The notes under the pieces: model-generated
What the model was told of the DNA's origin: nothing
The model's database searches: none
The model's input: only the letters and a program-made list of their open reading frames with translations
Program-made: the position numbers and the translations under genes
Assembly: GCA_016748015.1 (NCBI GenBank)
Contig: JAAOMT010000460.1
Span: 149,957-213,956, forward strand
Length of the DNA: 64,000 nucleotides
Direction of reading: 5' to 3'
From: Geosiphon pyriformis uo1
Taxonomy: Eukaryota > Fungi > Glomeromycota
Shown here: positions 7,613-49,945 of the stretch, piece after piece
Numbering within the stretch: the first letter of the stretch is position 1
Layout of the letters: each line of letters opens with the position of its first letter

Positions 7613-8185
7613 TAATAGTAGATCTGCGTAAAAAATAAAGCTTGTTTAATTATATACTTAAATAGTAATATTATTAAAAAAATTTACTAATTTGGTCTTA
7701 AAAATATTTTGCAAAATAATTACTTTTTTAATTTTAAAAAATTTAAATGCTGTTTTTTTATTAAAACTAATTAATAAATAAAAACAGTTTTAATAAACTT
7801 AAAAAGCTTTAAAATAAATAATAACATATTGTTATAAACTAATATAATCAATATTAAAAAAATTTAATATTGTTTTTAATAATTAATTTAATATTAAAAA
7901 TATTATATAAAACCAAAAAACAGTTTTTACATAAATTATTTTAATTTTTAAAAATTTTAAACACCAAAATATAAGTTATTTATTCAAGAAAATTTTAATG
8001 TATTTTAAATTTATTTTATAATAAAAACTTAAAAAATAAATTTATATTAAAAAATATAATAAAGCTTTTTTTTATTGATTTTTTGATTATAAAAAAACTA
8101 AAAAAATATTTTTTTAAATTCGATTTTTTTTATAAGTTTTTTAAGAATCATTATAAAAAAGTTTTTTTAATATATTTAATACTAT

Positions 8186-11100
8186 TTTATTTATTTATTT
8201 TAATTTAATGAATAAAACCCAACTATTATCTAATATATAAAATCAAACTAAGTAATTAACATTAAACATAATTCATATTTTTACTATATGTAATTAATTA
8301 CTTAAATTAAATAAGACATTACTATATATCTATATAAATTATAATCTTATTTTCCAAATTAAAAGAAAAAGATCATAGACTGTATTTTTTAAAATTGATC
8401 ACAAAAGACTTCATAATTTCTAATAAATAAATCATATTATTTAAAAATTTATTTACTAATATATATAACAAACCAGATATTATATTCTTATTTTTGATTA
8501 AATTAATCTTTTCTATATCAACTTTATATCTAAATCTGAAGAGCCAAATTTTTAAACAATACAATTTTATCAAATACTTTATAACTTTCAAAATAATTAA
8601 GATAGATTTTTTATTATTATTAAAAATCATATTAGCTTCCAAAAATTATTTTTTTAGTACAAAACTCTTGTAAATTATAACATACAAATTTACATTTTAA
8701 AATACAAAAAAAAATTGCAAAACAGCAAAAAAAAAAGTATTTCTTTACAAATATTAACATTTTTAATACAAATAAACACATAGTTTAATAGTTTTATTTT
8801 ATTATATAATAAGCACAAAACATTTAAATATGTCTTATTATATAATTTTTTCTTAATTATAATTAACAGTCTTTTATGTACAGCTTTTATTAAATAAATA
8901 TGCAAATTGGCCAACTTTTTATTAGTAAATCTTAATAATATATAAATATAAATATTATACTCATATAATCAATATTTAATTTATATTTTATAATAGTAAA
9001 TCAGAAAACATATTTTAATTAAGGCCAGTTTTTTATTAAGTTTACAAATAAATCTGTACAAATTACAAACAAAGTGACAAATATTACCAGACATAATTAT
9101 ATCTTTAATCATAATAAAATATTTATGCAGATCATATAGCAGAAAAAAAAAGAACAAATAGTCTTATTTATTAATAATTAGCTATGTTGTTTTTCAAAAT
9201 TTTTGAATAAATTTTAATTTTTAATTACTTAACCAAAAAATTTTTGTCTCTAATTAAATTAACAATATATTTTTTTTTATCCAGTAATTATAATAAAAAT
9301 TTAGAACAACAATAACAAATTTTAAAATACAAACATTAATAGCTGCTTGGCTGTTTAAATATACAATTATAACACAAAATACAAAGACACACTCTAATTT
9401 TAAAGCAACAGTTTGTAATTTGGCTAATGTAAAAAACAAAATCCTATTTATTTTAATATTAATACCTATATTTATAACAAAAAAGTAAGTAACAATTTTA
9501 TAAACAATTTTAACAGAACTTATATTCTTTAAAAATCTATTAATATATATTTTAAACATATTTAACCAAATTTTAAACAGTTATCTATATACATCAAAAA
9601 AAATCTCAGATTTCAAAATACTTGATTTTTGCAAATGTCTAATATAGTTAAAACTTATTTTTAAATGCTTATTTTTATACATAAACTTAGATATTTAACC
9701 AAACCAAAAAGACATAAGTCCTTTTAAATTCAATCTTTTTCACTTGTAAAACATTTTTTAGTTTATAATACAGTTTTTTTATATAAAAGCCTGTCATTAA
9801 ATACAACACTAAACCACTTCAAAGAGTAATCAAAACCATAATACAAAAATTTTTTTAAAATATTTGACATTAAAAACTTATTAAGACTATAAAACACATT
9901 AGACAAATTATTATCAAAAATATATTATTTTTAATAAAATTTTAATCATTTTAACAAAAAAATTATTTACAAAACTAATACATAATCTGATAAAATATTG
10001 TAATAGATTTAAAAAACCTATTTTATAATTTGTAAATTCAAAAATTTGTAATCAAAAAAATGTTTAAAAATATTTATAGTATTAAAAAATACAATTACTA
10101 AAGCCAACTTGTTTTAATTTATACTTGCTTAAAAGTCTTTAAACTATACAAAAAATAATAATAAAATACTTTATTAAAAAAGTTTTATAACAAATTGGTC
10201 TTTAATTTAAAACTTTTTCTAATTATAATATTTTATTTATAATATATATTTCTTAAAATAAAATTAAACTGCAAACAATAATTAACTATAGACTGCAAAA
10301 CAGCTAATATCAAATAAAAAAATTATTTATTTGTAATTACTTTTTACAACACAATATTGGCAAAAAACCAAACATTAAAATAAGTTTTAATCAAATTTAA
10401 CTTAAACAGATCTTTAATTGATGAAAAAATCTATGTGTTTTTTTCTTCTTAGTAATTAAAATAAATAAACCACTGATTTTTAATAAAACCATCTTGACAC
10501 TTTAATTAATAAAAATAAATGTTGTCTTTTTGTTGTTAATTAAAACATTATTGATTTTAAAAAATTTATTAATAATGTCTAAAATATACTGAGTAAAAGC
10601 TTGGCAATTTTTAATCTAAATTGTGTTATCTATAAAAGTATTTATTACAAAAAATATAGTTTTTTTCTGCTGTTTTTTATCCTGTCAGTTTTAACAACAA
10701 ATTTAGTATTAATTTAGTACTTACATAAATATTTCTGTTTTTTGATCTTATACAAAAAAAATTATAGAAAATTCTTTAGAAAAGAGAAGAAAAGACTTTA
10801 TTTTAATTTAGTTTATTATGTATCTTATAATTACATAAAAGCCTAAAGTTAATTATTATTCTATTTGTTTTGTTTTTGTGTATATTACTAAAAAAATTAA
10901 TAAACTGGCTGGATATCCTAATGTACTACAAACTAGCTTTCAAATAATATTATTTAACCAAATTATAGATCTTGTACATATTTTGTAAAACTAATTACAG
11001 TTCTCTGTTTTTTCTAAAACATTCTTGATTATTAAGCCAATGATAAACACAAAAAACTGAGTTAATATACTCTTTAAAACTGAAAAATTGTTTTTGCAAA

Positions 11101-13512
11101 AAACATTAAAACTGTTACAAATACTTAAAATATGATCAAATAATATTTTGAACAGAATTTTCTTAGCTGTCTTAATTAAAACAATAGGCTTTATATTATT
11201 AAAATATTATCTTATTTATAAAACTTGAAAATTATTGAAACCTATGCTTTTTTTAAAGAAGTCAGAACATTGTCCAAAGTTAAATAAGAGTTTAGCAAAT
11301 TTAAAAAGCATTTTAATACTAAGTTATCACAATGTTTTCAAAGTTTATTAAATATACTAAACAGATTAGCAGTTTTGTTATTAAGCAAATTATCAATAAT
11401 CAAAACCAACTTTTTTTTGTCAATTTTTTTTATAATTTTAGAAAAAACATTATTATTTATATATCTTAAAAATATATATTAACAAAACCACAAATAAAAT
11501 AATATTGAAAATACAACTTATTTTTTTATCTAATTTTTTATAATCTTATTAAGTTCAACTTTTACTTTGTTTGGTTTTAAAATTAACTCCTCTTTAATTA
11601 TTAAGTAATTCAAAACAATTTTGTAAAAAAGTTATTTCAAACTACTATCTATTATGTATTTTTTATTAAAATTAAAATTTTTCATATGCTTTTTAATTGT
11701 CTTCCTAATAAATATATTCTTAGTTGTCTTTAATTTATAATATTTTGACTTTTTATACTTCTTTTTAATTATTAACAAATATTTAATAATGTTTACTAAT
11801 TTTATATTTTCTTGTTAATTTCAAAAGCTTTTATATTATTAACAGTTAACTAAGTTTCAAAAAAATAATTAAATTTAAGTTTATTGTCTAAAACCAAATT
11901 TTTTACAAGTTTAACTACCAGTAGTTTTAACTTAAAAAACTGTTTGTTTTTTGAATAATTAAACTTATTAAACTAATATTTAGAAAAAATCTTATTAGCT
12001 GAATTAACTACTACTTTTTTTAACATCTTTTATATAGAATTTAAATTATTAAAACTCTTTGTTTTCAAAAATCTATTCAAAAAAATCAAAATTTTAACAA
12101 AAAAACAATTATTAAATTGTGTTTACTTGGCCTTATTTATATCTTTTATATTGAACTTCTAATAATTTTTTTTAGTCTGTTTGTAGATATTATTCAAACA
12201 AATATCTAAAAAATCTTCCAAACTCATTAAAATTTAAACCCAAACAAAACTTGAAATTTGCATTTCTTTTCAACTTATCTTTATTAAAATTCTTACTAAG
12301 AATCACAAAAAAGCTGAAATTAACTGTTTTGATAATAAATAAGTTGATTTTTAAAGCTTGTTTAAACCTAATTTTAGCAAAAACACCAATATACAAATCT
12401 AATATTGTAACTAAAAGCTTACTTCTAAACAAAAACTAAATTAAAATAACTGGTCCAGAATTTTTTTCATATTTGAAATATGTTGAACCAAAAAACTATT
12501 TATAATAATAATTAAATTAATATCAAAATAACCTATATCTAAGCCAAATATAAAAATTCAAACTCCATTAAATCTATTTTTAATTTATAATCTAATATTA
12601 GATCTTAATAATATTTCTGTAATAATTAAAATTATATTGTCAGAATCTATGTGTTAACAAACAATATTTTCTTGTTTAACCAAATTGTTCATATTTTTAA
12701 TATTACAAATAGCTATTTTTTATATTAATTTACTTATTAAAATGAAGAATATAACAACAAATCCAAATTAATACATAACTAATTTAACTTTTCTATAATA
12801 AAATTAATTAAAACATCTAAGACAACTATTTTCAATTCTATGCTTTTTATTTTAATAGAAAAATCTTTAAACTAATTAGTTTTAACATTAAAAAACCCAA
12901 AATACTTAATTATAAAAAGAGAAAATAGTATATATGAACTGTCTATTATCATATATAAGTTTAATTTTATATTAAAATCTGCAGTTTTTACCAAAATAGA
13001 AAAAAAATTACAAGAACATAAAAACTCAAGTTTAAAACATTCAATTTGTAAAAAATACCAGATAATTAATTTGCTAAAAACTTTAAAAACTTTTTTAAAA
13101 ATGTTAAATAGATATTTATAAAGAAAATTATATATAAAAAATATATATTAACAAAGAAAAAAAAACCAGAAAATGAATTACTAATCCAAAAATTATGATA
13201 AATAATAATTAAAACAGAAGATAGAAAAACAATTTGTACTTATAACATGTTTTTAAAAGCTGTAGACTGTAAAATAAATACTTTTTTTTGGCATAAAAAT
13301 AAGTTAACTAAAGTTGATTAGTATTTAAAACAAATTTCTTATAATTTTTTTTTAAAGCAGAAGCAACAGTATTAATAGTATTATATTTAAGAACAAAATG
13401 TTTAAAACATTCATATTTTTTATACCAAACTAAATCTAATTTAACATAAAAAAGTCTTAAATTACTAAAGTTTGGTTCTATGTAAAATACCAAATTCAGA
13501 TTTTTTTGATAT
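8186..13512 (-). mobile_element. Heavily decayed non-LTR retrotransposon (LINE): 3' part of ORF1 plus APE-RT-RNase H ORF2 and 3' tail
   Basis: APE relics KIAICNIKNMNN (~12700) and FVILSKNFN (=VLGGDFN, ~12290). RT region ~10550-11250. RNase H relic TLAKLQTVAL...YLNSQAAINVC (9330-9430). ORF1 zinc-knuckle relic WYKKYECFKHFVLKY (~13400). The 3' tail at 8186-8325 aligns with the tail at 56272-56410. Confidence 0.8.
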
Positions 13513-14262
13513 TGTTATGGTTGAAACCCATAATTTTTATTAGTTATCACATGTATTAGTCACTAATGTCATATAATTAGCCACTCTATTTTTAGATAGT
13601 GATCATTGACCTGATTAATGACCTGACTGTTGACCTGACTATTGACCTGATTATTGACTTGATTATTGACTTAATCAATGATCTGATCATTGACCTGATT
13701 ATTGACCTGATCATTGACCTAGTCATTGACCTGGTCATTGACCACTTTCAACAGATATATAAGCAATGAGTCTCTTAACTGTAAAAAATCATCTCTCAGA
13801 CAAAAATCAAATAAATAAAAATAACAACTTTCATCTCAATCACTCTCTTATCGCTAATTTTCCTTTCCCTACCTTCAAGTATCCGAACATCTTAGGATAA
13901 AAGATTACTTGTTGGCCTTTTTCTGATGTATATAATTGTAGTATTTGAAGATTATTTAAATAAACGTGACTGAAAAACACAAGTTGATACCTGATATTGA
14001 ATTCTAAGAGCGCCAATGTGAGGCATAGAATTATACTAGTGGTGATCAATTGTTGACAGTATGGACTATTTTTCTACCTTCAGATTCCCCAGTTATCTTT
14101 GAAAAGAATAGCGACTGAGATATTTTATGAGACTGATTTCATACATTGAATTCTTACTTATTCAATTCACTCTTTGAAGTTGAATCCCCTTTGATTATTT
14201 CCATTACCTTACAATCCTGTTCTCCCTTGCTATCCGTTAGCTTGTTACTCCAACCCATAATA
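13513..14262 (+). repeat. 5' LTR of Gypsy A (750 bp) with ~11 copies of a 12-bp U3 repeat
   Basis: Begins TGTTATGG and ends CCCATAATA (decayed ...GTAACA). TGACCTGATCAT-like array at 13601-13743, then TATATAA (~13756) and AATAAA. Direct repeat of 30735-31399. Confidence 0.95.
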
Positions 14263-14268
14263 TAAAAG

Positions 14269-14285
14269 TGGTGCTCCCTGTGAGG
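14269..14285 (+). promoter_or_regulatory. Primer binding site of Gypsy A
   Basis: TGGTGCTCCCTGTGAGG lies 6 nt after the LTR. It is complementary to a tRNA 3' end ...CCUCACAGGGAGCACCA (elongator-Met or Ile(UAU)-like; identity not verified). Confidence 0.8.
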
Positions 14286-14314
14286 TTGTCAAAATTCACT
14301 TTGTTTCCTATTAT

Positions 14315-17300
14315 ATGGGTGATTATTTATATCTGCCACAACAATCAGAAGAACACTTTAAAGCACACAACAAAAATGATCTAGACTTTATTGAACTCAA
14401 TCTTTTGCTCTTTTGCTTAATTTGCTTTTCTATTGAAAAACAATCCAGCAGACAATTCCAAGACTTTTGGAACTGGTTTTTGAATGAGCATTCAGCTAAA
14501 ACCTATACAGCTTATACAATCTATTACTTTGACTAAGCTTATTTTAAAGACAACTTTGAAGGAAGAAACAACAGTATCAATTAGCTTTTATATTCTGCAA
14601 CCTTTAAACAACAGCCCCCTGATTTTGAATATTTGAATCATCAAATCCACATTTGGATTGCTGCCCATCAATCAACAGAAACTCTTCTTGAAACAGAAAA
14701 AGAAAGCTATCAAACTGCTCCTGTTTTTGATCTCTTTTCAAGTGAATCAGAACACTCCACATAAACAGTTACACCTGAACCAATGGCTTAAGACCCTTTG
14801 CAACAAAACATTTTGATTGCCCTCCAAGGTATACAGACTGCTTTAAGGCAAAGAAACAACACCCCATTACTATTATTCAGAGATAATGCCCAAGATCCAA
14901 TTAAATGGTTGGATGATTTTAAGAGAGCTGTTATAGCCAACCAATATGATGATGAGTACAAGTTTCAAATTATTGGTGGCTACCTCCAAGGCTCCCCTGC
15001 TACATGGTTCTCACAGAAAACTGATGCTAATGCTCATCAAAGAATCATTAGATGGATGCCAGCAAATGCTGGAGAAAACAACACCTCTTTCACTACCCAG
15101 TTTGAAAACAAGTTCAGAACTCCAATCTTAATATCTAAATAGTGCATAGAACTGGAAAGAAAAACCCAAGGTCCTGGTGAAGTTGTAACCAAATATGCCA
15201 AAGCAATCAGAAAGTTAATCAAGCGAGTAGACTCTGGAAGAAACTGGACAGAAGAACAAAAGATTTATTTCTTTACAAAAAGATTGAGAACTGACTTATC
15301 TTATGCTCTTTGGCCTTTCTTGGCTCTGAAAGACAATCCTACAATGAACATGGCTATTGAACTCACCCAAAAGATTGAAGATAACCAAAGGATGCATCTG
15401 AGATCCACACTTCCAGTTTTTGCTCCTGCTCCTCAAATGGCCCCTGCTCCTCAAATGGCTGCTACTTCTTTTGCTGCCCAAACCCAAGACCCAAATGAAC
15501 AATTAATAGATAGACTTATAGCTAACCTTGCCTGGTTATTAGAACTATTGACACAAGCAGTCAGAGATAACCAGCAACCACCAAGACCTAGATATGAACC
15601 TTGTTTTAACCAGCCCCAGCAACCTCCCTATCAAAGACAGCAAAATCGTGGCTCATCTGTGTGCTATCATTGTGGATTAACTGGACATTATTCAAAAGAT
15701 TGTAATAATCTTTCACTGCTTCCTCCAGCTCCCAGAAACAATGACAACCAAAACAACAGATCCAACAACAACAACAATATCCCCAATCAAAGACCCAATC
15801 ATGCTAACATCAATTTCTTTGGAGAGGATCCCCTAGTTGAAGCCATTGTTTATCAGCCTTTAAACTAGTAGACACACCTCCAAAGAGTGAGAATGCAAGC
15901 CAACCAGAAAAAAACTTCTTTTACACTTTTAACTTAACTGATAATGACCATAACATAGATGAACTAGCAATCAACACTTCAGAACCAACCAGAAAGAAGA
16001 AGAAAGCCAAGATTGATTTCGTTCTAGACCCCAACAAAGCCTCAACTTCTGCCACTAATAACAATGAGCCACTAAAGGCTAAAGTTTTTAAAAATCTTCC
16101 AAAGTTGGAACCCCCAGAAATTGTACAAAAATCTGGACCCTATTCCATTGTCAAAGATCTCATGGAAACCCCAGCACATATTACCTTTGGCCAGTTAATG
16201 ACCCACCCACAGTTCAAAAAAAATCTTCGCAAATCCTTGATTCCAAAGAAAAAGACACCAAAAACCAACAAGCACCCTTACCAAACTAAACTTGCTGACA
16301 ACAGCAATGTCATCCCTCTGATTTGTAAAGCCCAAGTGGCTGGATACTTCATTGACTTAATTCTGGACAGTAGATCATCTGTTAGTGTCATTGCCAAACA
16401 CTTTTTGGAAGCAATTGGTAGAAAGATTGATGAATCTTCCACCAGACCAATGGCCAATGTACATGGTGACAAAAAAAAAGGACTGGGTATAGCCAAAGCT
16501 GTTCCTGTCTGCATCAATGAAATCAGCATTGAAACTGACATGGAAGTTTCTGAAGCCAAGAAATACACCATCATTGTTGGCAATGAATGGCTCAAGAAAG
16601 CAAAAGCTTTGCTTGATTATGAACTTTGTGAATAAACCATCAGATATGGTGAAAAACTCATTGTGGTTAAGTGTCGCCATTGGACAACTCCTCCAGCACC
16701 CAAACAAAATCAAGAAGAAAAACAATCAGATGAATCAGATAATGAAGAGAGCGATGAAGAAGAAGAACAAGAAGAGCAAGAAGAAACTGCTGAACTCGTC
16801 TATACTACCTTTACCAGCAATGACAAACCACTGGACAATGTTAAAGCAAACAAAAAAGAAATCATTGTAAATGGCAAGCTAATCTGTTGGCCTTATTATG
16901 ATATTCTTAGAAGAACCTTTGAAAGAAAACCTGGCAAGAAAGCCAAATACAGTTTTTGGTGGTATGGTTCTTGTGTCCAGTGTTGGTGCAACAAACTCTT
17001 GTATTCTCCAAGCGATGAATGCAAATCATGCCTGATCTATTACAGAGATTGGAAACCAATCAGTTTGATACCCAGAGAAAAATTGAAAGAAGTACAGAAG
17101 TCCTTTGAGAATGAACCACCTGAGATCCAATCACTAGTTGTAGAACAAAAAAAATTCTCCCCAGAAGAAAAAAAAATAGACATTGAAAATTTGCTGGCTA
17201 GAAATAGCCCAGTTATCTCTAAAGAAAGTGATACCCCTGGACATACCCATGTGATACAACATATCATCACTACTAGAAAAACTCGACCCATCTATTTGAA

Positions 17301-18591
17301 GCCTTATCAATCTAATCAGCACAATGATGAGTTTATCAAGAAAGAGATAAACTGAATGAAAGAACTTGGATTCATACAAGAAACCAAGAGTAAATGGGTT
17401 TTCTCAGTTGTAGTGGTATCCAAGAAAGATGGAACACTACACTTTTGTGTTGACTACCACCAATTAAATGCCATCACTGAAAGAGACATGTACCCACTTC
17501 TCAAGATTAATGCAATGTTAGACCAATTCAAAGATGCTGCTTTCTTCTCAACTATTGACTTAACTGCTGAATTCTGGCAAGTAGAAATGGATCCAGAAAG
17601 CAGAAAGAAAACTGCCTTCATTACCAAGTATGGCACCTATGAATTCACAGTCATGCCTTTTGGTTTTATCAACACCCCTCCTATCTTTCAACACTTAATG
17701 GATAAAGTATTTGAATCAGTCAAGGAAAACTTTGTTCTAGTCTATTTGGACGACATAATGATATACTCAAAAACCTGGGATGAACACCTGGAACATTTGC
17801 AAAAGGTTTTTGACCTCCTCAGAAATGCTGGCCTCAAGATCAATCCAATCAAATCTTTCTTTGGAAGACAATCCACCCAGTTTCTTGGTCATCTTATCAC
17901 AAAAGATGAAATTTTTCCTGACCCAGCCAAAGTTGAAAAAGTCCAAAACATCAAACAACCAATGAACATTCATGAACTACACTCTTTTCTTGGTTTGGCC
18001 TCTTATTATCACAAATTTGTCAAGAATTTCTTCAAAATCGCCTCTTCTCTCAATCAGCTACTCAGGAAAAATGTCAATTATCATTGGAGAACACATCAGC
18101 AAAAAGCCTTTGAAACTTTAAAGGAAAAACTGGTTACAGAACCCATTCTCAAGCAATCTGATCTAGATTGATCTTTTATCCTCCACACTGATGCATCTGG
18201 CTTTGGACTTGGTACTGTTCTCTCCCAGAAAGATGAAGATGGCAAAGAACATACCATAGTCTATGCCAGTAGAACCTTTTCTCCAGCAGAACAGAACTAT
18301 TCAGTCACTGAACAAGAATGCTTAGTAGTAGTATGGTCTACCAGTTACTGGAGTAAATATCTTCTTGGTGTAAAGTTTTTGGTGGTAATAGATCACCAAG
18401 CTTTGGTTTGGCTGCACAACAAAAAGAGGCTAGAACACAAACAGATAACTCGCTGGATACTCCACTTGGATGAATTTGACTATGATATTTAACATTACAA
18501 AGGAGCTAATCATCAAAATGCCAACGCTCTCTTCAGACTTATCATCCAGTGACAAAACAAATCTCTCAAACCAAACCAACTTAATTATTAG
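14315..18591 (+). pseudogene. Gypsy A gag-pol (Gag, CCHC knuckle, aspartic protease, acidic/Cys spacer, RT, RNase H); disrupted
   Basis: QDPIKWLDDFKRA (Gag), CYHCGLTGHYSKDC, LILDSRSSVS (PR), FCVDYHQLN, VMPFGFINTP, VYLDDIMIYS (RT), LHTDASGFGLG and TEQECL (RH), NANALFR. Confidence 0.92.
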
Positions 18592-18613
18592 TAATTCCCC
18601 CTTTTTAACAAAC

Positions 18614-19874
18614 ATGATAATAGACTTGGACAACTACTCTGCCTTAATGGAATTTTTGGGTAAAGGACAATACCCACCGAAATACACATGACAACAAAAA
18701 GAACATTTGTGCAAACAATCAAATTTCTATTTAATTCACCAGAACCAACTTTATAAAAGAAATAGAAAAGATTCTGACCACCTCCAGAAAGTCATCAGAT
18801 TTAAAGAAAGAAAAATTGTGATCTACAATATGTATACTAATCCATTAGCTGAACACTTTGGAAAAACAAAAACAATTCAGAAAACTCTAGCTCATTATTA
18901 TTGGCCTACTTTGGGAAAAGACATTGCTGAATACATCAAAACCTGTGATATCTGCCAAAGAAGAGGAAAACCCAATCACAAAGAAAATATTCATCCAATC
19001 TCTGTTGGTCAACCCTTTAACAGAATTGGTATAGATGTTGTTGGACCTTTAACAATAACTCCTGATAACAACAGATACATTATCACAGCTACCAACTATC
19101 TTACAAAGTGGGTAGAAGCAAAAGCCACTCCAGACCAAACAGCAGTTTTGATAGCCAATTTCATTTATGAAGATATCATTTGTTACCATGGCTGCCCCAA
19201 AGAACTTTTATCTAATAAAAGAAGAGCTTTTCTCAGTACACTTGTTAAAGAACTTTGCAGAAAAATGGAAATACATCACAAACTTTCCTCTTCTTATCAC
19301 CTCTAAAACAAATGATCTAGTAGAATATTTCAATAGAACACTATGTGAAACCCTAGTCAAAACCAGCAAAGAAACAAACTTATGGAACAAAGTACTGTCT
19401 TCAGCTTTGTTTGCTTATAGAACTGTAAATCATAACATAACAAGTTATAAACCCTTTTATCTACTCTATAGATAAATGACAACCTTACTAATAAAAACTG
19501 ACATTGAGACAATACCTTTTGAACAAATAACAATAAAAAATTACAAAGACATTTTGCAAAGAAGACTTGGTACCATTCTTGACTCATTAGTGGAAGCACA
19601 GATAATTGCCTTTGAAAAGATAAAACAATTCCAAGAGAAGCTTAAGAAAAAGAAAACATATAAAACACTTTTCTTAAGTGTTAGTGACTTAGTTTTAGAA
19701 TACCATTTAGACAAAGACAATGTCTATGGTAATAAATTCTCTAGCCAGTGGAAAGGACCCTTTATAGTCAACAAAGTTTTGAATAATAGTTCTTATATCT
19801 TACAAGATCAATATGGAACAATCTTCAATGATTGCCCTGTTTATGACACACAACTCAAGAAATATCACAAATGG
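18614..19874 (+). pseudogene. Gypsy A integrase with its own ATG, interrupted near the C-terminus by element B and continuing to ~30067
   Basis: MIIDLDNYSALMEFLGKGQYP...YLIHQNQLY, HHCC-type region (EHFG...CDIC), IGIDVVGPL, KWVEAKA, WKGPFIV. After the B TSD the frame continues WPDWLPVMVIP...NQI*. Confidence 0.9.
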
Positions 19875-20753
19875 TGTTACAGATGTAGGTTTCTGTGATT
19901 GAATTAAATAACAAACCCATAACTTGGTGCTCAAAAGCTATTTCCATTGATGATGTTCTGTAAGTGTTGTATCTGAAGGTTTTGATGGGTCTGAAGGTTT
20001 TGGTTGAGTCCTTTGTATAATGAACAGAGATTCAATAGTGTCAATAATAGATGTATCTTTCCAAAAGTTTTCCCAATTTCTTTCTCAGCATGGTGGCCGG
20101 ATTTAGTCTGGCAGTCATGCCTTTCTGGTAAGCTATCCAATAATATATAAAATTCTACTCTTATTTCTGGGTCTTTTACCAGGCTATCCTTGACGTCAAT
20201 AACTCAGTGCTTAATTCTTTTAATCAGTTAGTATATAACAACAAATCAAAATAAAATAAAGAAAAAGAAATAAAAGAAAAATAAAGAAAGAAAGAAATAA
20301 GCCTAGGCGATTTTGCAGATTAGTATCCTGTCAATAGCCATGATCAAGAGCTATTGTTCCAGTGTGGTTAAGTATCAATTACTATCAACATGAAGTGTTG
20401 ATAGTGAAGAGTGGGTTGAGATATGGAATAATTATTTATTTGATGATTGTGTTTTCTAGGCTAAGGATTATGTGGTATTGATTCTGTCTTTTCTGTTTCT
20501 AACACTACTGCTATATATACATAATTGAGATTCCTCAATTCCTCAATTCTTCACGACAGAAATCCTGGAATTCCTGGAATCCTGCAATTCCTTTGAGAGG
20601 AATCCTGGAATCCTGCAATTCCTCATCGGGAATTCTGAAATTCCTGGAATCCTGCAATTCCTGAGAGGAATCCTGGAATTTCACATTTACTATGCTTACT
20701 TCTGATTGGCTAATAATTATGCTAATATATTTCCTATATTTCTATAAGTAACA
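19875..20753 (-). repeat. 3' LTR of Gypsy B
   Basis: Direct repeat of 29156-30003. On the minus strand it has a CCAAT box (20701-20710), a TCCTG(G/C)AAT array (20555-20682) and TATATATAG (~20510-20518). Confidence 0.95.
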
Positions 20754-20767
20754 TTATTCTCTCCTTT

Positions 20768-21427
20768 TTAATATTGAGCTCTGTTGAAATCTAACTCACG
20801 TAATTCCTCTTCTTGAAGTATTTCCTGGATTTTGTTTTTGAGAATTACTTGTGTTATTTGGGTCTGTAATTCTTCAAATTGATCATTGGTGATTTTCTCC
20901 AGTTGATTACTGGTAACCATATCCATTGCTCTGTTGTATAATATTTCTGGTTTATCTTAAAATGCTGTGTGTATTCAGTATATGGCTCGGGCTTGTGTAG
21001 ATAAGTTGTTTTTTCCCACAAAATGTTCTAATTGTTGTAGTATTCTTTTGTCGAATAATTGCTTTGTTTTATCCATATATAGATTCTGAATATTTACGTG
21101 TTGTCCCAAGTAGAAATAACAATAGTTTTGTGGGAATTGTTGTATCCACCAATTCCAAGTTTTTTTAGTTAACTCTTGATATAGTGACTCTTTTGTCGAT
21201 TCTTTTATTGCTAATTTTACTTTCACCATGATTTTGTCCACGGTATTTTTAGTTTTCTTTTGTGTTCTGAGTTGAAATGTTTTTTTAGTATCTTGATATT
21301 GAATGGTTTGTTGATTGATTGTAATCTCCATTTCCTGGTGTTGGATTAATTGAAAGAGTTGTTGTACTAGTGAGTGAATGTTGTCTGTAATTTCCATTTT
21401 TCTGATATTTCCTGTCGCATCTATCAT
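20768..21427 (-). pseudogene. Gypsy B extra ORF (~219 codons, two in-frame stops) between integrase and PPT
   Basis: ATG at 21427, ~25 nt after the integrase stop. Reading through TGA and TAA (revertible to CGA and CAA) it ends ...ELDFNRAQY* at the PPT. Confidence 0.7.
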
Positions 21428-21450
21428 GTCTTTATATATTCTTTTGATGG

Positions 21451-22834
21451 ATCAATTTAACGTGTTGTTGTCGATAATAATAATTGGTTCCAGATTTCGT
21501 GGAATTTCATCTGGTTGGACTAGTATTCTCTATACTCCTAATTGTGGAATATTACTGGTAGATGGTAGTGTGATGTTGTAATATGGTTTCAGTCAATCTC
21601 CATGTGCTGCTTTGGTTTAAATTTTGTTATCCAATCTTAATTTGTAAGCTCCATTTCCTAGAATTTCTTCTATGTGAAATGGTCCATCCCATTTGGAGTC
21701 AAATTTTCCACTCCATTGTTTTTCCACTTTGGTACAATGTAGTAATATTTTGTCTCTAATCTTGAATTCAACTGGTTTGTCTGGTAGTTGACTATCATGT
21801 CTTTCTTTCTGTGTTTTTTGTGACTTTTGGATATTATCAGCTGCTTTTCTTCATTTGTTTTCCAATGTTTCTATTAAGTCATATGTTTTTCTCAGCAATG
21901 TTTTTTGAAAATTTTCCTCTGTTATTGGTTCAGCTGGATATGTGTTAATTTTTCTCTCTACTGGTAACATTGCTATTCTCCCGTATACTAATTCAAATGG
22001 TGTTGCTTGTGTAGTATCTTGTTTCATTGTTCGATAAGCAAATAGTACTGATGGTATGAACAAATCCCAATCATTCTGGTTTTCTTGGCTGAGCTTGGCT
22101 ATTGCTTCACACAATGTTCTGTTGAATCTTTCTACTAATCTGTTGGTTTGTAAATGGTATGGTGATGATAATGGTCTCTTGATTCCGAATCTTTGGCTCA
22201 ATTCTGTTAATGTTCTGTTTACAAAATAAGTTCTTTGATTTGATAATAATTCTTTTGGATATTCATGTCGACAAATCAAATCCTGATGAACAAATTTGGC
22301 AACAGATTTTGCATCTGCTCTTTGAATTGCTTTCGTCTCTGGCCATTTAGTGAGATAGTTCATAGCTACTGCTATGTATCTGTTTCCTCTGCTGGTAATT
22401 GTCAATGATCCAACTAAATCAATTCTCATATGGTCAAATGGTTGTCCCACTTTGATTGGTCTTAATGGTTTACTGGGTCTTGTTCCTCCTCTTCGCTAAT
22501 AGGCATCACAATTTTGAACATATTGAATAATGTTTGGGTACATTGATGGCCAATAGTATCTTTTTCTAGTTCTTTCCATGGTTGTTTCTTTGTGAAAATG
22601 TCCTGCTGTTGGATTTGAGTGCATGTTGAATAATATTGTCTCTTTTTCTGGCTCCATAATTACTCTGGTTGGTTGATCTGGATCTCTTCTATTTTTCCGA
22701 TAAAGTATATTTTGGTAAGTGATAAAATATTTTGATTGTTGTTTGATACTCCTTTGTTCCGTATGAGATAAATTCTTCTTGAACTGTTGAGTATTTAGAT
22801 AATGTTGTAATTGTTGATATTTTTTTATGTCCAT
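21451..22834 (-). pseudogene. Gypsy B integrase with its own ATG
   Basis: MDIKKYQQLQHYL..., HSNPTAGH...CDAY, RIDLVGSL, KWPETKAI, LVERFNRTL, WDGPFHI, ending NLEPIIIIDNNTLN*. Confidence 0.92.
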
Positions 22835-22897
22835 CCTTTGTTGTATTTTTTCGTTGGTATTGTTCTGGTTTTATTATATTTTTGGGTTAAAATGTTT

Positions 22898-29093: not shown

Positions 29094-29155
29094 TTTTGGT
29101 TTGGTGTTGTCGGTGCTGGTTCTCTGTAGAATTATACCTTACAGAGAGTACCAAA

Positions 29156-30003: not shown

Positions 30004-30012
30004 ATGGCCTGA

Positions 30013-32225: not shown

Positions 32226-32358
32226 TATTACTAGTAGAATTTTAATCAATAATTAACATAAAATTACTTTTATAATTCTTAGTATTAATTAGCATATATT
32301 ATTATTTTTAATTATTACTATTATTTAATTAATAACTTAATTTATACAAATACACAAA

Positions 32359-40800: not shown

Positions 40801-43800
40801 AGAATATATTAAATATACAATGAAATTAGCTGAATTCAATTATAAAGATAAAGTAGAAACATATTATCAGATTACAAGTCATGCTTATTTAACCAAAAAA
40901 GGTCAAATTCAATAATTAAAACAAATTAATATTCAACTATGTGAAGAATGTACTATGTCTTGTAATAATTAATAGTGTTCAGAATATTATACAATTAGTA
41001 TTTTCTTGTTTAATAAAAATAATAAATATGAAATTGAATTTGGAAAATCTGAACCAAAAGAAAAAATTGCAACAACTCTGATTTATTTACTGAAAATCAT
41101 TCTGTTATACAACTCCAATACTTTGACAACAATAAACAAAGAATAAAACCAGAAAAAGCCCATAAAATAGATACTAAATATGATTTACAATACTTAGAAA
41201 AAGACACTTTGGTTTTTCAACCAAAATCTCTGACAAAAATAAATCTAAAAATTGCTCTTAAAATCCTATTAAGAACAATAATTCAAATTGTTTTCTAATC
41301 ATTATTGGCAAGCAAAGAAATTAATATTAGAGAAGAAATTATAGATATAAAATAAACTAAAGACATTACAATCCTGTTACAAAATAAAATTAATAAACTA
41401 TTCAAAATTGAGCATGCCAAAAAAATTGCTTAAGCAATTTACCTATTCTTAATCAACATTTTGGGTTTACAATTAATTAACAACAGAGAACAATTAAGAA
41501 AAAGTAAAAAAAAACACAAAATTTTGGTTTGACAGAACAATTCACAGTTTTAGTAAACATAGCTCTTAATGTATAAAATAAATCTTATTAAATTCTTTAA
41601 CTACCTCAACCAATTACTATTTTATCTTTTAGAAAATATCACGAAATCTACACTTGTTTAAAGCCTATTACCACTTAACAAATCTTTGAGTTAAATGAAT
41701 AAATTTGTTTAAAGCATGAAATTTCAATCTCAAACATTTATATTTCAAAAGAAATAAAAAAATTTCAAGTTATATTTTACAATGCCAACAACTATTCCAT
41801 CATTTTATTAAATAAATTAGAAATTAAAATCATATATAGCAATATCTTTCAAGATAAAATCCCTTAGATTGTTTCTAATTTCATCAAAATTGTAAAACAT
41901 ATTCTATTTTCAAATCCAAACATCATCCCTACTATTAAAAACTACCATATTTTAAAAAAAAAACTTGTTCAAATCAACATAAATTTCTTAAAACCCCAAC
42001 AACAAAAACAATTAAAACAGTTAATTGCCAAATATGCCAATATATTTGCCAAAACTAATAATGATTTTGGAAAAACTGATATTATATAACATTAACTTTA
42101 TACAAAAAATGTTCTACCAAAATGTTAACAAGTCTACTAAATTTCATCTGCTAGCCACCAATTCATCAAAAAAGAAGTTCAACAAATACTCAATAATGAT
42201 CTTATTTAACTATTAAAAAGTTCTTGGGCCTTATTAATAATTTTTGTAAAAAAAAAATAGCAAAATCAGATTTTGTGTAAATTATTAACAATTGTCTATC
42301 CACTACCAAAAATTAACAACATATTAAATGTTTTGAAAAAAGCCAAGTTTTTTTTAACTTTAAACTTAAAAAGTAAATACTGACAAGTTAAAATAAACTC
42401 TAAAAATTACTTCAAAACAGCATTTACTACTTAAAAAAAAATTATGAATTTAACATAATGCTTTTTGAACTCTATAATACACCAGCAACATTCCAAAGAC
42501 TTATAGATATTGTTTATAAAAGACTTTTATGACAATCAGTAATTGTTTACTTAGATAATACTAATATATACTCTCCAAGTTTTAAAGCCTATCTGATTTA
42601 TTTGTGAAAAGTTTTTTAACAATTATGAAAAGCAGAATTAAAATTGAATATTGAAAAATGTTATTTTAAAAAAACAAGTTTAATTTTTTGAAACATATTG
42701 CCAGCAAAGATGGAATTCAATCCAATCCAGAAACAATTAGTGCTGTTAAAAATTTTTAAGTTCTCCAAAATACTACAGAACTAAGAGAATTTGTAGAATT
42801 AGCCTTTTATTACTGAAAGTTTATCAAAAGATTCTCCAAAATTGCCAAATTACTTAACCATTTGACCAACAAAGATATAAAATATTAATAAACACAAGCT
42901 CAATAACAAGCATTTAACATTTTTAAAGAGAAACTTATTACAACCCAATTTTTGCCTATTCAAATTTTAATAAAAGGTTTCAGTTAGCCATTGATGCTTT
43001 ACACATAGTTTTTGGTGCTATTTTATCACAATTGGATAATAATAGCAATAAATAAGTAATTTTTTATATCAGTAGAATTCTTAAACCAACTGAACTTAAA
43101 TATGAGTTTACTGAATTGGAAACAACAGCCATTATTTGAATTCTAAAATACTTACAAAAATATTTCCAAAATGGATCCCAATTTAATATCATTACAGATA
43201 ATATTGGCCTCAAATGACTCAACAAAAAAAACTTTGAACTTAATACCAAATAATCTTAATGGTCTGATTTTCTAGCAGATTACAAATATATTATATATCA
43301 TAAACTAAACAAATTATATACAAATATAGATAGTTTTTTTAGAATAAGACAAGATTAGATTCAACACCAACAAATTATTAACCCAATAATAGTTAATAAA
43401 CAAAATAAATCCTGAAAACTACAACAATATTAAAAACTATTTAAAGATTCTCAAAATACCAGAAAACTGGTTTCTAGCTATAAAAAACCAATTACAACAT
43501 TAATCCAAACAATATTTTCTGCACCATAACAAAATTTATTATCAAAACTGCTAAAACTCAACAAATTTACTTAGAGTAGTCCAACAAAATAAAAAAAAAA
43601 CAATCTTATACTTTTTATCAGGACATCTAGGAAGAGACAGCACAATACAAAGAATATTAAAATATTATTTTTGGTTTCACATGTACCAAGACATTTAACA
43701 GTATATAAAATTATATGATAGTTGTCAAAAAAGAGAAGAAATTTGTCTTACTGAATTTTTAAATTCAATTAAAATTGAACAATTTTCAACAAAATAAGAA

Positions 43801-46800
43801 TTGATTTAATTGAACTATTACCTATTATCACTTAAAAGAACTGTTAGATTGTAGTTGCTATAGACTATTTTATCAAATGGTCTAAAGCCAGAGTTATTTA
43901 AAGAGCAGATGCAAAATCAATAGCAAATTTTATTTATAAAGCCATTATTTGTAAATATAGATGCCTAATTAAACTCTTATCTGATCAAGAAATATACTTT
44001 GTAAACAACTTGATATAAGAAATTTGTGAACAGTTTAACATAAAACGATCTTTATTATTACCATATTATTTGCAAATAAATGAATTAGTAAAATATTTTA
44101 ATCAGACTTTGTGTAAATTATTAGCCAAAGTTTCAACTGATTTTGAGCAGAAATAGAATATCTTTATTTTATCAGTATTATTAGTATACAGAATACTAAA
44201 ACAAAATACCACAAAACACACATTTTTTAATCTAATTTATGGAAGAATAGCAATATTACCAATTAATTTCATTGTGAAAACATATTTTGTGCAACCAATT
44301 AATGAAAAAAACTTTCAAAAAACACTTTAACAAAAAGTTTACATCCTTCTTAGTATTTTAGAAAAAAATAACAAATAGCAGCCACTTATATTAAACACTC
44401 TTAAGCTTAACAAAAAGAATGATATGACAACAAATTGCCACTAGTTATTGACAAATTTAAAGTTGAAAACAAAATTCTCTTACATAAAACTAAAGCTAAA
44501 AAACAATGAAGTGGAAAATTTAAACATAAATAGGATAAACTATTCTATATTCATGAAATTCTAGACAATAAATCATACAAGTTAAGATTTGATGACAAAA
44601 TTCTAGCAAAAGTTACACATAAGAATCAATTGAAATATTATTATTTCAGAAACAATCCTAAATCATTAATTCCACAAATTGGTACACATTTTCTTTTAAT
44701 TAATTTTAAAAATATTTTCCAAAATTTAGAACCAATAATTATAATAAAACAACAATTAAATCTGAATATTTAAATTAAAAATTAAAAATTAAAAATACAC
44801 AAATATAAAACAAAAATAGTAAACAATCACAAAAAAATCCAATAACCAAAAATATTTTCATATTTTTTCTTTTTTTAAACCTGTTCAAAATTTTATTTTT
44901 TATTTTTCAAATTTTTTTAAATTTTATTTACAACCTTATTTACTTTACTATAATTATTCCACAAATATTCCACAAATATTTTAAAAATCAATATTAGCTT
45001 TGAAAACACTTTTTAACTTATTTATAACAATTAATAGAAGTCAAATTAATTACATGCAAAAAGAAACTATAATACCAATAGTAAATAATTATTAAAATTA
45101 TTATTTTTATAAAAAAAACACAAGAAGTTATTCTGAAAGTCAATTACCAGAACTTTTAAAGCAAGCTTTAAAAAAAAACTTTTTAATTGCTCCTATTAAC
45201 ATTTTACCAAATGTTACAATACAACAAAAACTTCTACAGTATTTTAATAAACAAAATAATAAACATACTCTTATATATAGATATTTTTATATTAAAAAAA
45301 CACTTTATAAATAAAAATTAGAACTTGCAGCAACAAATCTCACTTCTAAAATTATACAAAAACAAATTTACAATGAATTCAAGACAGCAACTAAACTAAC
45401 AAATACTCACTATAAACTTAGAACAGCATTTAGACTCTATAATTTATTTAATATTTGTAAAAATGTCCTACAAAATTCAATACTCCAACCAATGAAAATT
45501 CAATATATTGATAAATTTACAGAATTGAAATTTCAATAATTTTCAGACCAAATTGTTATAATTATTTTGAATCATTATCTTGATATTACAAATAGTACTT
45601 AAACTTTAATAAAGCTCAATTTTGAGAAAAAAATTATGTTACCAATAGAATTTTAGCTATTAATTAGCATAAAATTACTCTTATAATTTCTATTATTATT
45701 TAGCATATATTAATATCATTTTAAATTATCACTTATTATTTAATTAAATTATCAAATATTACTATTTAATTAATAATTTGATTTATACAATAAAAATTAG
45801 GATAATTAAATTACACAATACTCTGAACTATGTAACATTTAAAAATTTATTAAAATTTGTAAAAATAATAGATAATTTACCAAAATAATTAATAATTCAT
45901 CAAAATAACTTTTAGTTTGTCAAAATGTATCTTTAGTTCATCAAAATTATAACAAAGAAGAAAGTTCAAGTTTATAAACTAGTACTACAACAAATTATAT
46001 AAAAAAAAAGCTTTTTTTTTAAGAAAATATATCTTATCTTATTCAGAATCATCTTAATTTGAATTAATTAGCTTTACAAAAAATAATAAAAACATCAAAT
46101 ACTTGAAAACCAAATTTTTTAACTATTTATATTTGAAATTTCTTTTAAACTCAACTAATAGTTTGAAATTAATTAGCTACCAATTTCAGTAATCTGTTAG
46201 TAATTTTAAATCTATACAAAAAACAATTTTTTTGAGAAAATTCTATTTCTTTTATATTTCTTTTATTTTATTTTATTTTATAATTATTAGAGTAGCCTAC
46301 AGACAAAATTTTTGTAAAAAAGTTGACTTTTGCAGCAAAGTAACTACACAATTTAGGAAGCTTTCAAATAAACAATTTCTGGAAAAGAGTTGATATTTAC
46401 TACAATGTAAATATTGTTATAGATGATTATTTGGGGTTTCAAAACAAATAACAAACTCGTAACTTGGTGCTTGATTGATATTCTGGTGTTGATATCTGAA
46501 GATTTGGTTGATCTGAAGGTATTGTTGTGAAGTTTTTTGTATAATAAACAGAGATTCAATAGTTGTTTCAGTAGTCTCCCAGAATTGCAATTTTATCAAA
46601 TTTTTTTCTCAATATGATGGCCAGTAATCCTCCTGGTAAGCTATCCTCAAATCTATGAGTGTTTTACTCTTGTTTCATGGGTCTTTTACCAGTCCCTATG
46701 ATGTTTGTAATTTAGCACTTAATTCTTAATCAATTAGTAAATCCAAAGAAATAACAAAAAAAAAATAGAAAAAAACAAAAGAAAATAAAGAAATAAGCAA

Positions 46801-47526: not shown

Positions 47527-47790
47527 ACATTACAAATTTAATACTAAAGCTTCTAAAATCTTTTAAACTTAAAAAACCAGCAGATAAATTAATCATATCA
47601 TTATTAACTTCAGACTTTTTTGGTTTTTTATAAGATATATCACAGAAATAAACACTTTTTACACATTTTTTTTTGTTATTTGAGTGGATTTTCAAACCAG
47701 TTGAGCCAAAACTAAAACTACTAACAAATAAGCCTACTGGTTTTATTACAACAAAAAGAAATATACTAAAAAAAATAACTAAAAAAGAAG
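47527..47790 (-). mobile_element. Decayed 5' end (ORF1 start) of a LINE
   Basis: IKPVGLFVSSFSFGSTGLKIHSNNKKKCVKSVY...SYKKPKK, preceded by a T-rich leader, resembles ORF1 N-termini of this LINE group. Confidence 0.5.
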
Positions 47791-49945
47791 AAATAAAAAG
47801 AAATAAAAAAAGCTATTTTTTTAAAAACTTTATGTTCTTGTCATAACCAGAAGATTAACAAAAGAAAGAGTTTTTTTTTTAAATTGTAAATATTATAAAT
47901 AATTTGTAAATATTGGTAAAAAAAACATTTGTGTTATTTAAGTAAACAATTATAAATTACTATAAAATTTTTAAGAAAATTATATTTATTAGTTTTTAAA
48001 ATATTATAAAAATATTAATTAGTTTAAATAATATTATATTGAATTTATAATTGCTATTTTGTATAATAAATATTGTTTTATATTTGTTTTTTGAATTTAT
48101 TGGTATTTATTGATATTTATTAATCAAATTAAATATAAAAACTATTTTGCTTTTTTAAAAATAATAAAAAATTTTTTTATTTTTTTTTTTATTAATACAA
48201 TTAGTAAGAACTAAATATTGAATTATTTTATTTTTTAATATTTTTTAAACTTTTTTTAAATAAAATTATATTTTATAAACAGAATATAATAAGTATACTA
48301 TTTTTAATTTTTGTATTTTTAGTAATAATTTGATATTAAACCAAGTTGATTTGGTCAAATTTATTATTTTACAAAAATATATTAAAATATTTAAAATTAA
48401 TGTTTTTAATTAATATTGTTAATCAAAATTCATTGTTTTAAAATTTAATTTAATCAATTTTTTAAATATAAGTTAATAATATTTAATAGTAATTGCCAAT
48501 TTATTAATGTAATTTTACAATAAAATATAATTTTTGAAAAGTTTAAAATTTTTTGTAATATTATCATATTTTTTAACTCTATTTTAAGATATTTAATAAT
48601 AATATTTTCTATAAATAAATTTTTAAATAAAGCTTAAATATTAATTTTTTATTTTTTATTTTTTGATAATTTTATTTAACTTTTTTGTTATTTTAATTGT
48701 AATCAAATTTTAAAAAATTTTTAAAAAAAATAAGTTGTGATTTAAAAAAATAATATTATAAAAATTAAATATATCATTTTTTATAACTTAACAAGCTTAA
48801 TTATTAGTCTATCAAGCTTTAATTAAATTCTTAAGAATTTTCACTTTTTTTACTATTATGTAAACAAAATTTTATAGAATTTTGTATAATTATTAAACCA
48901 ACACCAATTTTATCAAAAATTATAAAATACTAAAAAAATCTATTTTATATGGCAAAAATAATTTGAATTTATTGATTTATCTTTGTTTATAATCATTTAA
49001 TCTTTGCCCCGAATCTAAGTCAATTTTTGAATGCGTATATTCTAAATTCAACATGCCTGCGAATTTCTTGACCTTTATTTATTTTTGAAATAGTAAGATT
49101 TAAGATTTAAAAAAGGAAACTTTCATTCATCCAGGTCAGAACTGATTTTTGGTCAATTGCAATCTCAGAGATATGTGATGAATAATCTAGGTGACTCGGA
49201 TTGAGGGCTCCCAAGTTCGTTTGTAAAATGATCTTATACAATAGAGGCCCTTACCTGCATCCTCTCTACCAATGATTAGTCCAAAGCAGCGTCCAATTTA
49301 TATTGTTCCACAATTTTCATTTTTCTCCATCACCCGTAGCTAATTTTCTCGGTGAAATAACAAAACATCAGAACACATTTCGTTTTAAAATCCAAACTCA
49401 TTAAAAGTTAATAGACCCGTGTTATTGGGCGTAATTGTTCGAAGCTTGTCTAAAAGTCACCCTTCTAATTCGAGGAAAAAGTTGACGTCAGCACAATCTC
49501 CTGATAAATCAAGAATAATTTTGAAATCATACTTTAATATCCCTATTAGCAAGCTGGACTAGTTTGACCTGAGGTTGAGAATGAAAATGGGGAATGATGA
49601 TTCAGTAGCAAATAGCCCATGACAAGAAATATCCGTTGGTCTAATATACTCCATGCCCAAACAATGATAAAGTACTTATTATATACTACCGCTTTGGCGT
49701 AGAACAAACCTTACGCTAAAAATGAGTTGACCGAAATAGGTATTGGGTTTTCCAATAAAACGGACAGGATAAGATAGCGTTTGTCCTTTTGATTTAATTC
49801 TTTGATCAATTTTCAATTTATAAATCCGAGATGCCTTGTCAAAAGCAAACGGAAGCCTAAAACCGAATTCCAAATAACTTAGGGACAACTACGTACTCAC
49901 CAATAATAAATTCTACAATTAATAGACAACTTTTTCCACTTAGTC

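What the first reader, a model, noticed from the sequence alone, without database searches (positions are those of the whole stretch)
7640..48950. Repeat-restricted C:G->T:A hypermutation beyond CpG, resembling RIP in an apparently non-Dikarya fungus
Seen in sequence: comparing the two LTRs of B by eye over the first ~650 bp, the substitutions I found were all C<->T or G<->A. They occur at CpG (AACAAA/AATGAA, TCCAAT/TCTGAT) and also at TpC, CpC and ApC (TTGAT/TTAAT, TCCAA/TCTAA, AACACT/AATATT). Catalytic motifs decay the same way (YLDD->YLDN, MPFG->MLFG, DSG->DSR/DSE, PQTNG->LQTNR). The oldest elements are nearly pure A/T yet still colinear. MED16, the HMG gene and SF3B2 keep CpG, with sharp borders near 5230, 7640, 48990 and 52990. 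Established: RIP is described from Ascomycota, with RIP-like patterns in some Basidiomycota, and is tied to the sexual cycle; passive mCpG decay would affect mainly CpG. Inference: an active repeat-targeted deamination or non-CG methylation system operates in this genome.
Basis: partly seen in the sequence, partly recalled or inferred. Interest (0 to 1): 0.75.

Follow-up and report, generated by a model that had tools for sequence, protein, structure and literature searches.

The report
All-context C-to-T decay of Geosiphon repeats
In the fungus Geosiphon, a relative of arbuscular mycorrhizal fungi, repeated DNA loses cytosines to C-to-T change in every sequence context, far faster than any other mutation, while neighbouring genes and one expressed repeat copy are largely spared; this is likely the scar of dense transposon methylation rather than classical RIP, and I did not find it described for this fungal group.

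Summary
Observation confirmed and extended. The window is from Geosiphon pyriformis (Glomeromycotina). Two nested Ty3/gypsy LTR pairs differ by 97 transitions and 1 transversion; 69 of 86 context-scored events lie outside CpG. Across 120 other copies of element B, C:G>T:A runs at 0.124 per opportunity, against 0.0097 for the reverse and 0.0026 for transversions. A 10%-GC relic RT has 21 of 21 changes of this type. Defining RIP traits fail: there is no CpA preference, no strand clustering (p=0.21), and a spliced member of a roughly 20-30-copy family is largely spared while its siblings show 326 C:G>T:A places against 18 others. CpG is hit 3-4 times more than CpH, and 5'-pyrimidine sites about 1.8 times more. 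Best reading: gradual, position-dependent decay of all-context 5mC (DIM-2-like), as in Zymoseptoria but with another context. Methylation and enzymes were not tested, and the intron/synonymous control could not be run. The scan earlier found similar patterns in Endogonales and Dimargaris. Not found in print for Geosiphon in my searches.

The parts
13513..14262 (+). 5' LTR of gypsy element A (left target-site duplication ATAT at 13509-13512)
14263..19874 (+). Interior of element A (gag, protease, RT, RNase H, integrase), broken by stops; 15 of 23 changes at conserved RT/RNase H columns are C:G>T:A type
19875..20753 (.). Left LTR of element B, nested in A; target-site duplication ATGG on both sides; other A copies join across the site
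   Evidence: (joint 19871>30012)
20754..29155 (-). Interior of element B (gag, protease, dUTPase, RT, RNase H, integrase); long frame 23364-26015 used for the 120-copy family test
29156..30003 (.). Right LTR of element B; 43 transitions and 0 transversions against the left LTR
30735..31399 (+). 3' LTR of element A; 54 transitions and 1 transversion against the 5' LTR; followed by ATAT
7640..13508 (.). Old decayed repeats, about 16% GC, 1 CpG against about 36 expected; 7855-8000 and 8185-8696 align to younger repeats with strong C:G>T:A asymmetry
41970..44756 (+). Older gypsy pol relic colinear with element B (431 C:G>T:A against 124 reverse differences, plus 511 transversions from lineage divergence)
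47921..48130 (-). RT relic in 10%-GC DNA: 21 of 33 conserved residues changed, all 21 reachable by C:G>T:A alone
53315..53852 (+). Integrase-region relic in 9%-GC DNA, colinear with element B (119 C:G>T:A against 8 reverse, 63 transversions)
5330..7640 (.). Largely spared, spliced member of a multi-copy unit of unknown class (about 20-30 times single-copy depth); siblings differ from it at 326 C:G>T:A places, 8 reverse transitions and 10 transversions
1..5230 (.).
48990..52990 (-). Gene island (SF3B2-like, name recalled from motifs), about 36% GC with CpG kept, between 10%-GC repeat relics; control (copy number not tested)

Best explanation
Repeats in this Geosiphon genome lose cytosines to thymine on both strands, gradually and in all sequence contexts, likely because repeat-rich chromatin is densely methylated at CG and non-CG sites by DIM-2-like and DNMT1/DNMT5-like enzymes and the methylcytosines then deaminate without repair. 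Shown: direction, repeat restriction, context ranking (CpG 3-4 times CpH; 5' pyrimidine about 1.8 times 5' purine; CHG equal to CHH), independence of strand, a higher load in the older of two nested elements, and decay to a 9-10% GC floor. Inferred: that 5mC is the intermediate; that targeting goes by chromatin position rather than by pairing of copies (one expressed copy beside genes escapes); and that the step may be enzyme-assisted, because non-CpG C>T exceeds each transversion path at least about 77-fold in the LTR pairs. The effect would be slow, permanent inactivation of transposons.
For: Spectrum: 97 transitions to 1 transversion in two LTR pairs; 2631 C:G>T:A, 382 reverse and 473 transversion single-step amino-acid changes among 32,934 residue observations in 120 copies. 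Polarity: at columns conserved in 60 outgroup RTs, 72 of 93 changes in window RTs are C:G>T:A type and 1 is reverse, against 124 of 419 among the outgroups themselves. In the 5330-7640 family, 8 of 8 listed non-synonymous sites have the window's C/G state shared with homolog P0121. Gradual: no strand runs (1296 observed against 1277+/-23, p=0.21), no strand overdispersion among copies (p=0.96), no short-range clustering. The outer element A has 43 of 184 cytosines hit and the inner element B 43 of 296. The two transition rates predict about 7% GC at equilibrium; the oldest relics are at 9-10%. Literature (passages read): AMF keep DNMT1, DNMT2, DNMT5, DIM-2 and RID, and Rhizophagus has 32.5-49.5% of cytosines methylated (PMC8298701). 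Phycomyces TEs carry CG and CHH methylation, genome-wide 3.4% against 0.9%, with DIM2 and DNMT1 (PMC11258239). Dim2 drives mitotic C>T in Zymoseptoria TEs (PMC8016269).
Against: No methylation data and no methyltransferase gene from Geosiphon were examined; no genome was held. The context differs from Zymoseptoria Dim2, where over 98% of C>T is at CpA and CG is spared, and Phycomyces TEs lack CHG enrichment while CHG equals CHH here. The spared copy is not pristine: 5 of its 7 amino-acid differences from P0121 are C:G>T:A type on the window's side. The direct control, a substitution spectrum in single-copy non-coding DNA, is missing: DNA run X1 is identical to the window over 1-5421, and only one difference there is listed (3014 A>G in X3). 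The 120 proteins are gene models, biased to open frames and not independent of each other. A rate ratio of 77-fold or more is above what I recall for spontaneous 5mC decay.
Confidence: 0.6

Rival explanations
1. True RIP: a RID/Masc1-type enzyme mutates paired repeats before meiosis, in many weak rounds whose strand signal has averaged out, with a relaxed context.
For: Nearly pure C:G>T:A, with no transversion-type change even in a saturated relic (21 of 21). AMF are reported to keep RID (PMC8298701). Sharp borders at repeat edges.
Against: No CpA preference: RCA 5.6%, RCC 9.2%, RCT 8.1%; LTR pairs CpA 24 of 170, CpC 25 of 101, CpT 20 of 173. No strand clustering, and lightly hit copies also look mixed by eye. 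A member of a 20-30-copy family is largely spared, a 276-bp piece identical to it has about 3 times single-copy depth, and a 298-bp sibling contig has about 13 times. RIP as I recall it hits both partners and would make such copies diverge if sex were regular. RIP signatures were not detected in Gigaspora (PMC8647823).
Confidence: 0.15
2. Methylation-independent: unmethylated cytosines in heterochromatin deaminate, by a deaminase preferring TpC/CpC or spontaneously with no uracil repair in packed chromatin, on top of ordinary CpG methylation decay.
For: 5' pyrimidine preference (13.9% against 7.7%, site-level p=2e-5). In the most decayed DNA TpC is depleted (o/e 0.70) and GpC survives (1.86).
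Against: The preference is under twofold, and ApC and GpC are still hit far above background. There are no processive same-strand clusters. No deaminase was identified. Very high total 5mC in a relative offers a simpler substrate.
Confidence: 0.15
3. A genome-wide C>T mutation bias acts everywhere, and genes look spared only because of selection.
For: Introns are AT-rich (27% GC, 7 CpG against 10.7 expected in 589 bp). No direct spectrum for single-copy DNA was available.
Against: Intergenic DNA beside genes is 33-36% GC with CpG at expectation, and fourfold sites are 36% GC, against 9-16% GC and almost no CpG in old repeats. Differences between the window's 1-7600 and the spliced contigs are mixed: 3 transitions and 3 transversions in X2, 4 and 3 in X3 (small, overlapping counts).
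Confidence: 0.07

Closest known systems
Dim2-dependent TE methylation and mitotic C>T mutation in Zymoseptoria tritici (PMC8016269; passages read)
   Same: C>T dominated, confined to repeats, includes non-CG sites, needs no sexual cycle.
   Different: There over 98% of C>T is at CpA and CG is spared. Here CpG is the top target, CpA, CpC and CpT are hit about equally, and there is a 5' pyrimidine bias. The host is Glomeromycotina. The enzyme link is tested there and untested here.
Repeat-induced point mutation (RIP) of Neurospora crassa and other Pezizomycotina (PMC12543289; abstract, sections 8 and 9 and passages read)
   Same: Repeat-restricted C:G>T:A, AT-rich relics with sharp borders, very few transversions.
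   Different: No CpA preference, no strand clustering, a spared near-identical copy. The composite RIP index is only 0.12 in the most decayed DNA and negative in elements A and B, so index-based screens would mostly miss it.
CG and CHH methylation of TEs in Phycomyces blakesleeanus (PMC11258239; passages); high 5mC and TE mCG in Rhizophagus irregularis (PMC8298701, PMC8647823; passages)
   Same: Related early-diverging fungi with TE-directed 5mC and DIM-2 plus DNMT1; the CG:CHH ratio of about 4 resembles the CpG:CpH mutation ratio here.
   Different: The passages read report methylation, not a mutational outcome; CHG is not enriched in Phycomyces TEs.
RIP-index signal in Zoophthora radicans (PMC11105155; passages)
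   Same: A published claim of RIP-like decay outside Dikarya.
   Different: It rests on dinucleotide indices only, in Zoopagomycota, and the authors state major caveats; no substitution spectrum appears in the passages read.

Membership tests
RIP (RID-dependent) | C:G>T:A transitions concentrated in repeated DNA | tested here: met
RIP (RID-dependent) | CpA/TpG preference | tested here: not met
   CpA 14% and 7% against CpC 25% and 12%, CpT 12% and 10%; CpA o/e 1.10 in the most decayed DNA. TCA sites could not be scored in the protein set; in the LTR pairs TCA is 13 of 69.
RIP (RID-dependent) | Mutations arrive in strand-biased bursts (feature recalled, not from a call) | tested here: not met
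   p=0.21 for runs and p=0.96 for overdispersion over 120 copies; LTR copies p=0.09-0.29; curveball null. Many rounds could hide it.
RIP (RID-dependent) | All sufficiently similar copies are targeted by homology (recalled) | tested here: not met
   The spliced copy at 5330-7640 is largely spared in a 20-30-copy family, and identical multi-copy contigs persist. It does carry a few C:G>T:A-type changes.
RIP (RID-dependent) | RID/Masc1 gene present and required | not testable with these tools
   No genome held. RID is reported for the AMF clade; Geosiphon is not named in that paper's main text.
RIP (RID-dependent) | Acts only in the premeiotic stage | not testable with these tools
   Needs crosses or mutation-accumulation lines.
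Dim2-type methylation-linked mutagenesis | Non-CG cytosines in repeats mutate to T | tested here: met
   69 of 444; 752 of 7236 in CpG-free codon classes
Dim2-type methylation-linked mutagenesis | CpA specificity with CG spared, as in Z. tritici | tested here: not met
   CpG 17 of 36; at three CGY-type Arg columns only about 21-33% of copies keep Arg
Dim2-type methylation-linked mutagenesis | Non-CG 5mC on repeats and a DIM-2 gene | not testable with these tools
   Only contigs were available; clade-level literature only
Passive mCpG decay only | Excess vanishes once CpG is masked | tested here: not met
   69 transitions to 1 transversion remain

The most novel reading that the evidence does not exclude
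Geosiphon runs an enzyme-driven, RIP-family genome defence (RID or a DIM-2-like mutator) with its own context rule, CpG first and then any C after a pyrimidine. If RID-dependent, it would be a fossil record of sexual cycles in a lineage long held to be asexual, and would place RIP's origin before the Dikarya split.
Probability: 0.15. Interest if true: 0.82.

Novelty: new variant of a known kind. Interest (0 to 1): 0.52.

Why it matters
Published work read here says RIP signatures were not detected in an AMF or in Mucoromycotina (PMC8647823) and that RIP-like defence is confined to ascomycetes with a CpA preference (PMC12543289; Geosiphon absent from its main text and from supplementary files 1-12). 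Geosiphon shows a repeat-destroying C>T process of comparable purity that CpA-based indices would largely miss. If it reflects all-context methylation, it predicts dense non-CG 5mC in Glomeromycotina repeats, would account for the very high total 5mC reported in Rhizophagus, and means LTR-divergence dating and gene counts in this genome are distorted. One nanopore run would test it.

Tried and rejected
No genome was held, so there was no proteome search for RID, DIM-2, DNMT5 or deaminases. Related DNA loci for element B were not found: none of 61 pattern matches in metagenome contigs and none of 13 in viral contigs was confirmed. The single-copy control by polymorphism gave one listed difference in 1-5230. 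No RNA holder was on record; X2 and X3 are treated as RNA only because their contigs skip GT-AG introns. UV damage was rejected: CC>TT doublets number 46 against about 43 expected. Hypermutation during reverse transcription was rejected: LTRs are identical at insertion (established), both strands are hit, and the 5330-7640 unit, which has no Pfam hit to any RT or other family, shows the same pattern. A processive deaminase was not supported: same-strand neighbours within 3, 10 and 30 codons match the null. The third protein search (RT of A) returned 115 mostly unnamed hits and none labelled as another AMF, so a cross-species AMF comparison was not possible; the top 60 served as outgroup. Eleven older repeat pairs and two comparisons of LTR B with an old relative show more transversions (Ts:Tv from 87:13 down to 19:41); these include divergence before insertion and low-complexity misalignment and were not used for rates. 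Searches that listed no paper on this in Geosiphon or AMF, judged from listings. The Geosiphon genome paper did not appear in these listings and was not read; supplementary files 13-19 of PMC12543289 were not searched. Either may bear on novelty.
Full report
Host. All 120 listed homologs of the long frame of element B (of 214 found) are annotated Geosiphon pyriformis proteins, so the window is from this glomeromycotan fungus. No whole genome was held. The evidence beyond the window therefore comes from these proteins and from contigs of four coded runs.

Anatomy. Gypsy element A (LTRs 13513-14262 and 30735-31399, duplication ATAT) is interrupted by element B (LTRs 19875-20753 and 29156-30003, duplication ATGG), and other A copies join across B's site. 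Around them lie older repeats at 9-24% GC with almost no CpG. Gene islands at 1-5230 and 48990-52990 have about 36% GC and CpG o/e 0.79.

Observation. The LTRs of B differ by 43 transitions and no transversion, those of A by 54 and 1. Taking C/G as the original state, 17 of 36 CpG cytosines and 69 of 444 other cytosines differ: CpA 24 of 170, CpC 25 of 101, CpT 20 of 173. CpC and CpT events, 45 of the 86, cannot come from a hidden CpG. The non-CpG rate exceeds each transversion path about 430-fold, with a lower bound of about 77.

Direction, from three further data sets. (a) Against 496 majority columns in 120 genome-wide copies of B (461 used, where the window carries the majority residue), single-step changes were 2631 C:G>T:A, 382 reverse and 473 transversion-type, plus 277 ambiguous and 293 multi-step. 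Per opportunity that is 0.124, 0.0097 and 0.0026. (b) At 100 columns conserved in 60 of 115 outgroup RTs, eight alignments to window RTs (two overlap slightly) gave 72 C:G>T:A, 1 reverse and 20 other changes; the outgroups themselves gave 124, 64 and 231. The relic at 47921-48130 gave 21 of 21. (c) Contigs of run X1 laid on 1-7600 show single-copy depth and no difference over 1-5421, then about 18-36 times that depth over 5335-7600, with 146 C>T, 180 G>A, 8 reverse transitions and 10 transversions. Only 40 places were listed, so I assume the unlisted ones lie in the multi-copy part. That part has 72 CpG cytosines among 715 C/G, so at least 254 places would be non-CpG. At 8 of 8 listed non-synonymous places in the 6717-7103 frame, homolog P0121 shares the window's residue. 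Laid on A and B, X1 gave 3251 C:G>T:A places, 1427 reverse and 745 transversions, with some uncounted by the tool; the reverse class likely reflects the window copies' own hits.

Context. CpG is the top target: 47% against 16% in the LTR pairs, and three CGY-type Arg columns keep Arg in only 21-33% of copies. Among non-CpG sites the 3' base matters little (RCA 5.6%, RCC 9.2%, RCT 8.1%) and CHG equals CHH (9.5% against 10.5%). A 5' pyrimidine raises the rate (13.9% against 7.7%, p=2e-5 by site). The most decayed DNA agrees: CpG o/e 0.04, TpC 0.70, GpC 1.86, CpA 1.10. TCA could not be scored in the protein set because it yields stops; among the 30 listed C:G>T:A places it is the commonest triplet (7), so a modest TCA preference is not excluded.

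Mode. Events are not clustered by strand: 1296 same-strand neighbours against 1277+/-23, overdispersion p=0.96, nothing at short range, and p=0.09-0.29 in the four LTR copies. CC>TT doublets are at expectation. The outer element has the higher load (43 of 184 against 43 of 296), and the two transition rates predict a GC floor of about 7%, near the 9-10% seen. This reads as slow accumulation. The spared, spliced copy at 5330-7640 argues that chromatin position, not homology alone, decides what is hit. Against a clean reading, this copy differs from P0121 at 7 residues, 5 of them C:G>T:A type on the window's side, and its siblings share many changes by descent.

Control. Indirectly, introns are 27% GC, intergenic DNA beside genes 33-36% with CpG at expectation, and fourfold sites 36%, all far above the repeat floor. 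The second test, masking CpG, did not remove the excess.

Mechanism. The best fit is dense CG and non-CG methylation of repeat chromatin followed by unrepaired or enzyme-assisted deamination (0.6). Passages read support plausibility only. AMF keep all five 5mC methyltransferase types, and Rhizophagus has 32.5-49.5% 5mC by LC-MS (PMC8298701). Phycomyces TEs carry CG and CHH methylation (PMC11258239; its supplements list Geosiphon only as an assembly and a tree tip). Dim2 causes mitotic C>T in Zymoseptoria, though at CpA (PMC8016269). PMC7862722 and PMC13297926 (passages) describe DIM-2 as acting in all contexts. The rivals are RID-type RIP in many weak rounds (0.15), a methylation-independent deaminase or repair gap (0.15) and a genome-wide bias masked by selection (0.07).

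Novelty. PMC8647823 states that RIP signatures were not detected in Gigaspora or Mucoromycotina (passages). PMC12543289 restricts RIP-like signatures to ascomycetes and does not name Geosiphon in the main text or in supplementary files 1-12. PMC11952901 describes Geosiphon's LTR load with no mention of RIP, point mutation or transition (term search and passages). PMC11105155 reports index-based RIP in Zoophthora (passages). The searches listed nothing on this process in Geosiphon; the genome paper itself was not seen. This scan has unreviewed notes on similar decay in Endogonales and Dimargaris, described as CpG, then CpA and CpC, with CpT spared. Here CpT is not spared. Those notes are not independent support, and my reading was recorded before I saw them.

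Verdict. The feature is real and strong. It works like methylation-linked repeat mutagenesis and should not be filed as RIP, since three defining traits were tested and not met. New variant of a known kind; interest 0.52.

Noticed in passing
window:5330-7640: Multi-copy unit with two convergent, spliced, overlapping transcripts (GT-AG introns on both strands), no Pfam hit and homologs in Rhizophagus; class of mobile element unknown. One sibling contig has about 13 times single-copy depth, suggesting amplification after mutation.
   Followed up: partly
window:19871-19874 and 30004-30007; 13509-13512 and 31400-31403: Target-site duplications ATGG (B) and ATAT (A) could be decayed NCGN sites; other A copies read CG at B's empty site (table 5c).
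   Followed up: partly
window:23364-26015 (-): Element B carries a dUTPase between protease and RT (Pfam E=1e-17); many annotated 'hypothetical proteins' of this genome are decayed copies of it.
   Followed up: partly
window:33011-34510 (+): Stop-free 499-codon frame with a CCHC zinc knuckle and a weak RRM, like a LINE ORF1, yet almost without CpG; a few segments outside 1-7640 and 48990-52990 keep some CpG (59001-60000 has 9).
   Followed up: no
window:13588-13755 and 30810-30893: 12-bp tandem array inside LTR A with unequal copy number between the two LTRs.
   Followed up: no
window:48000-48950, 53000-55000: AAGCTT/AGC words survive conspicuously in 9-10% GC DNA (GpC o/e up to 3.2).
   Followed up: partly
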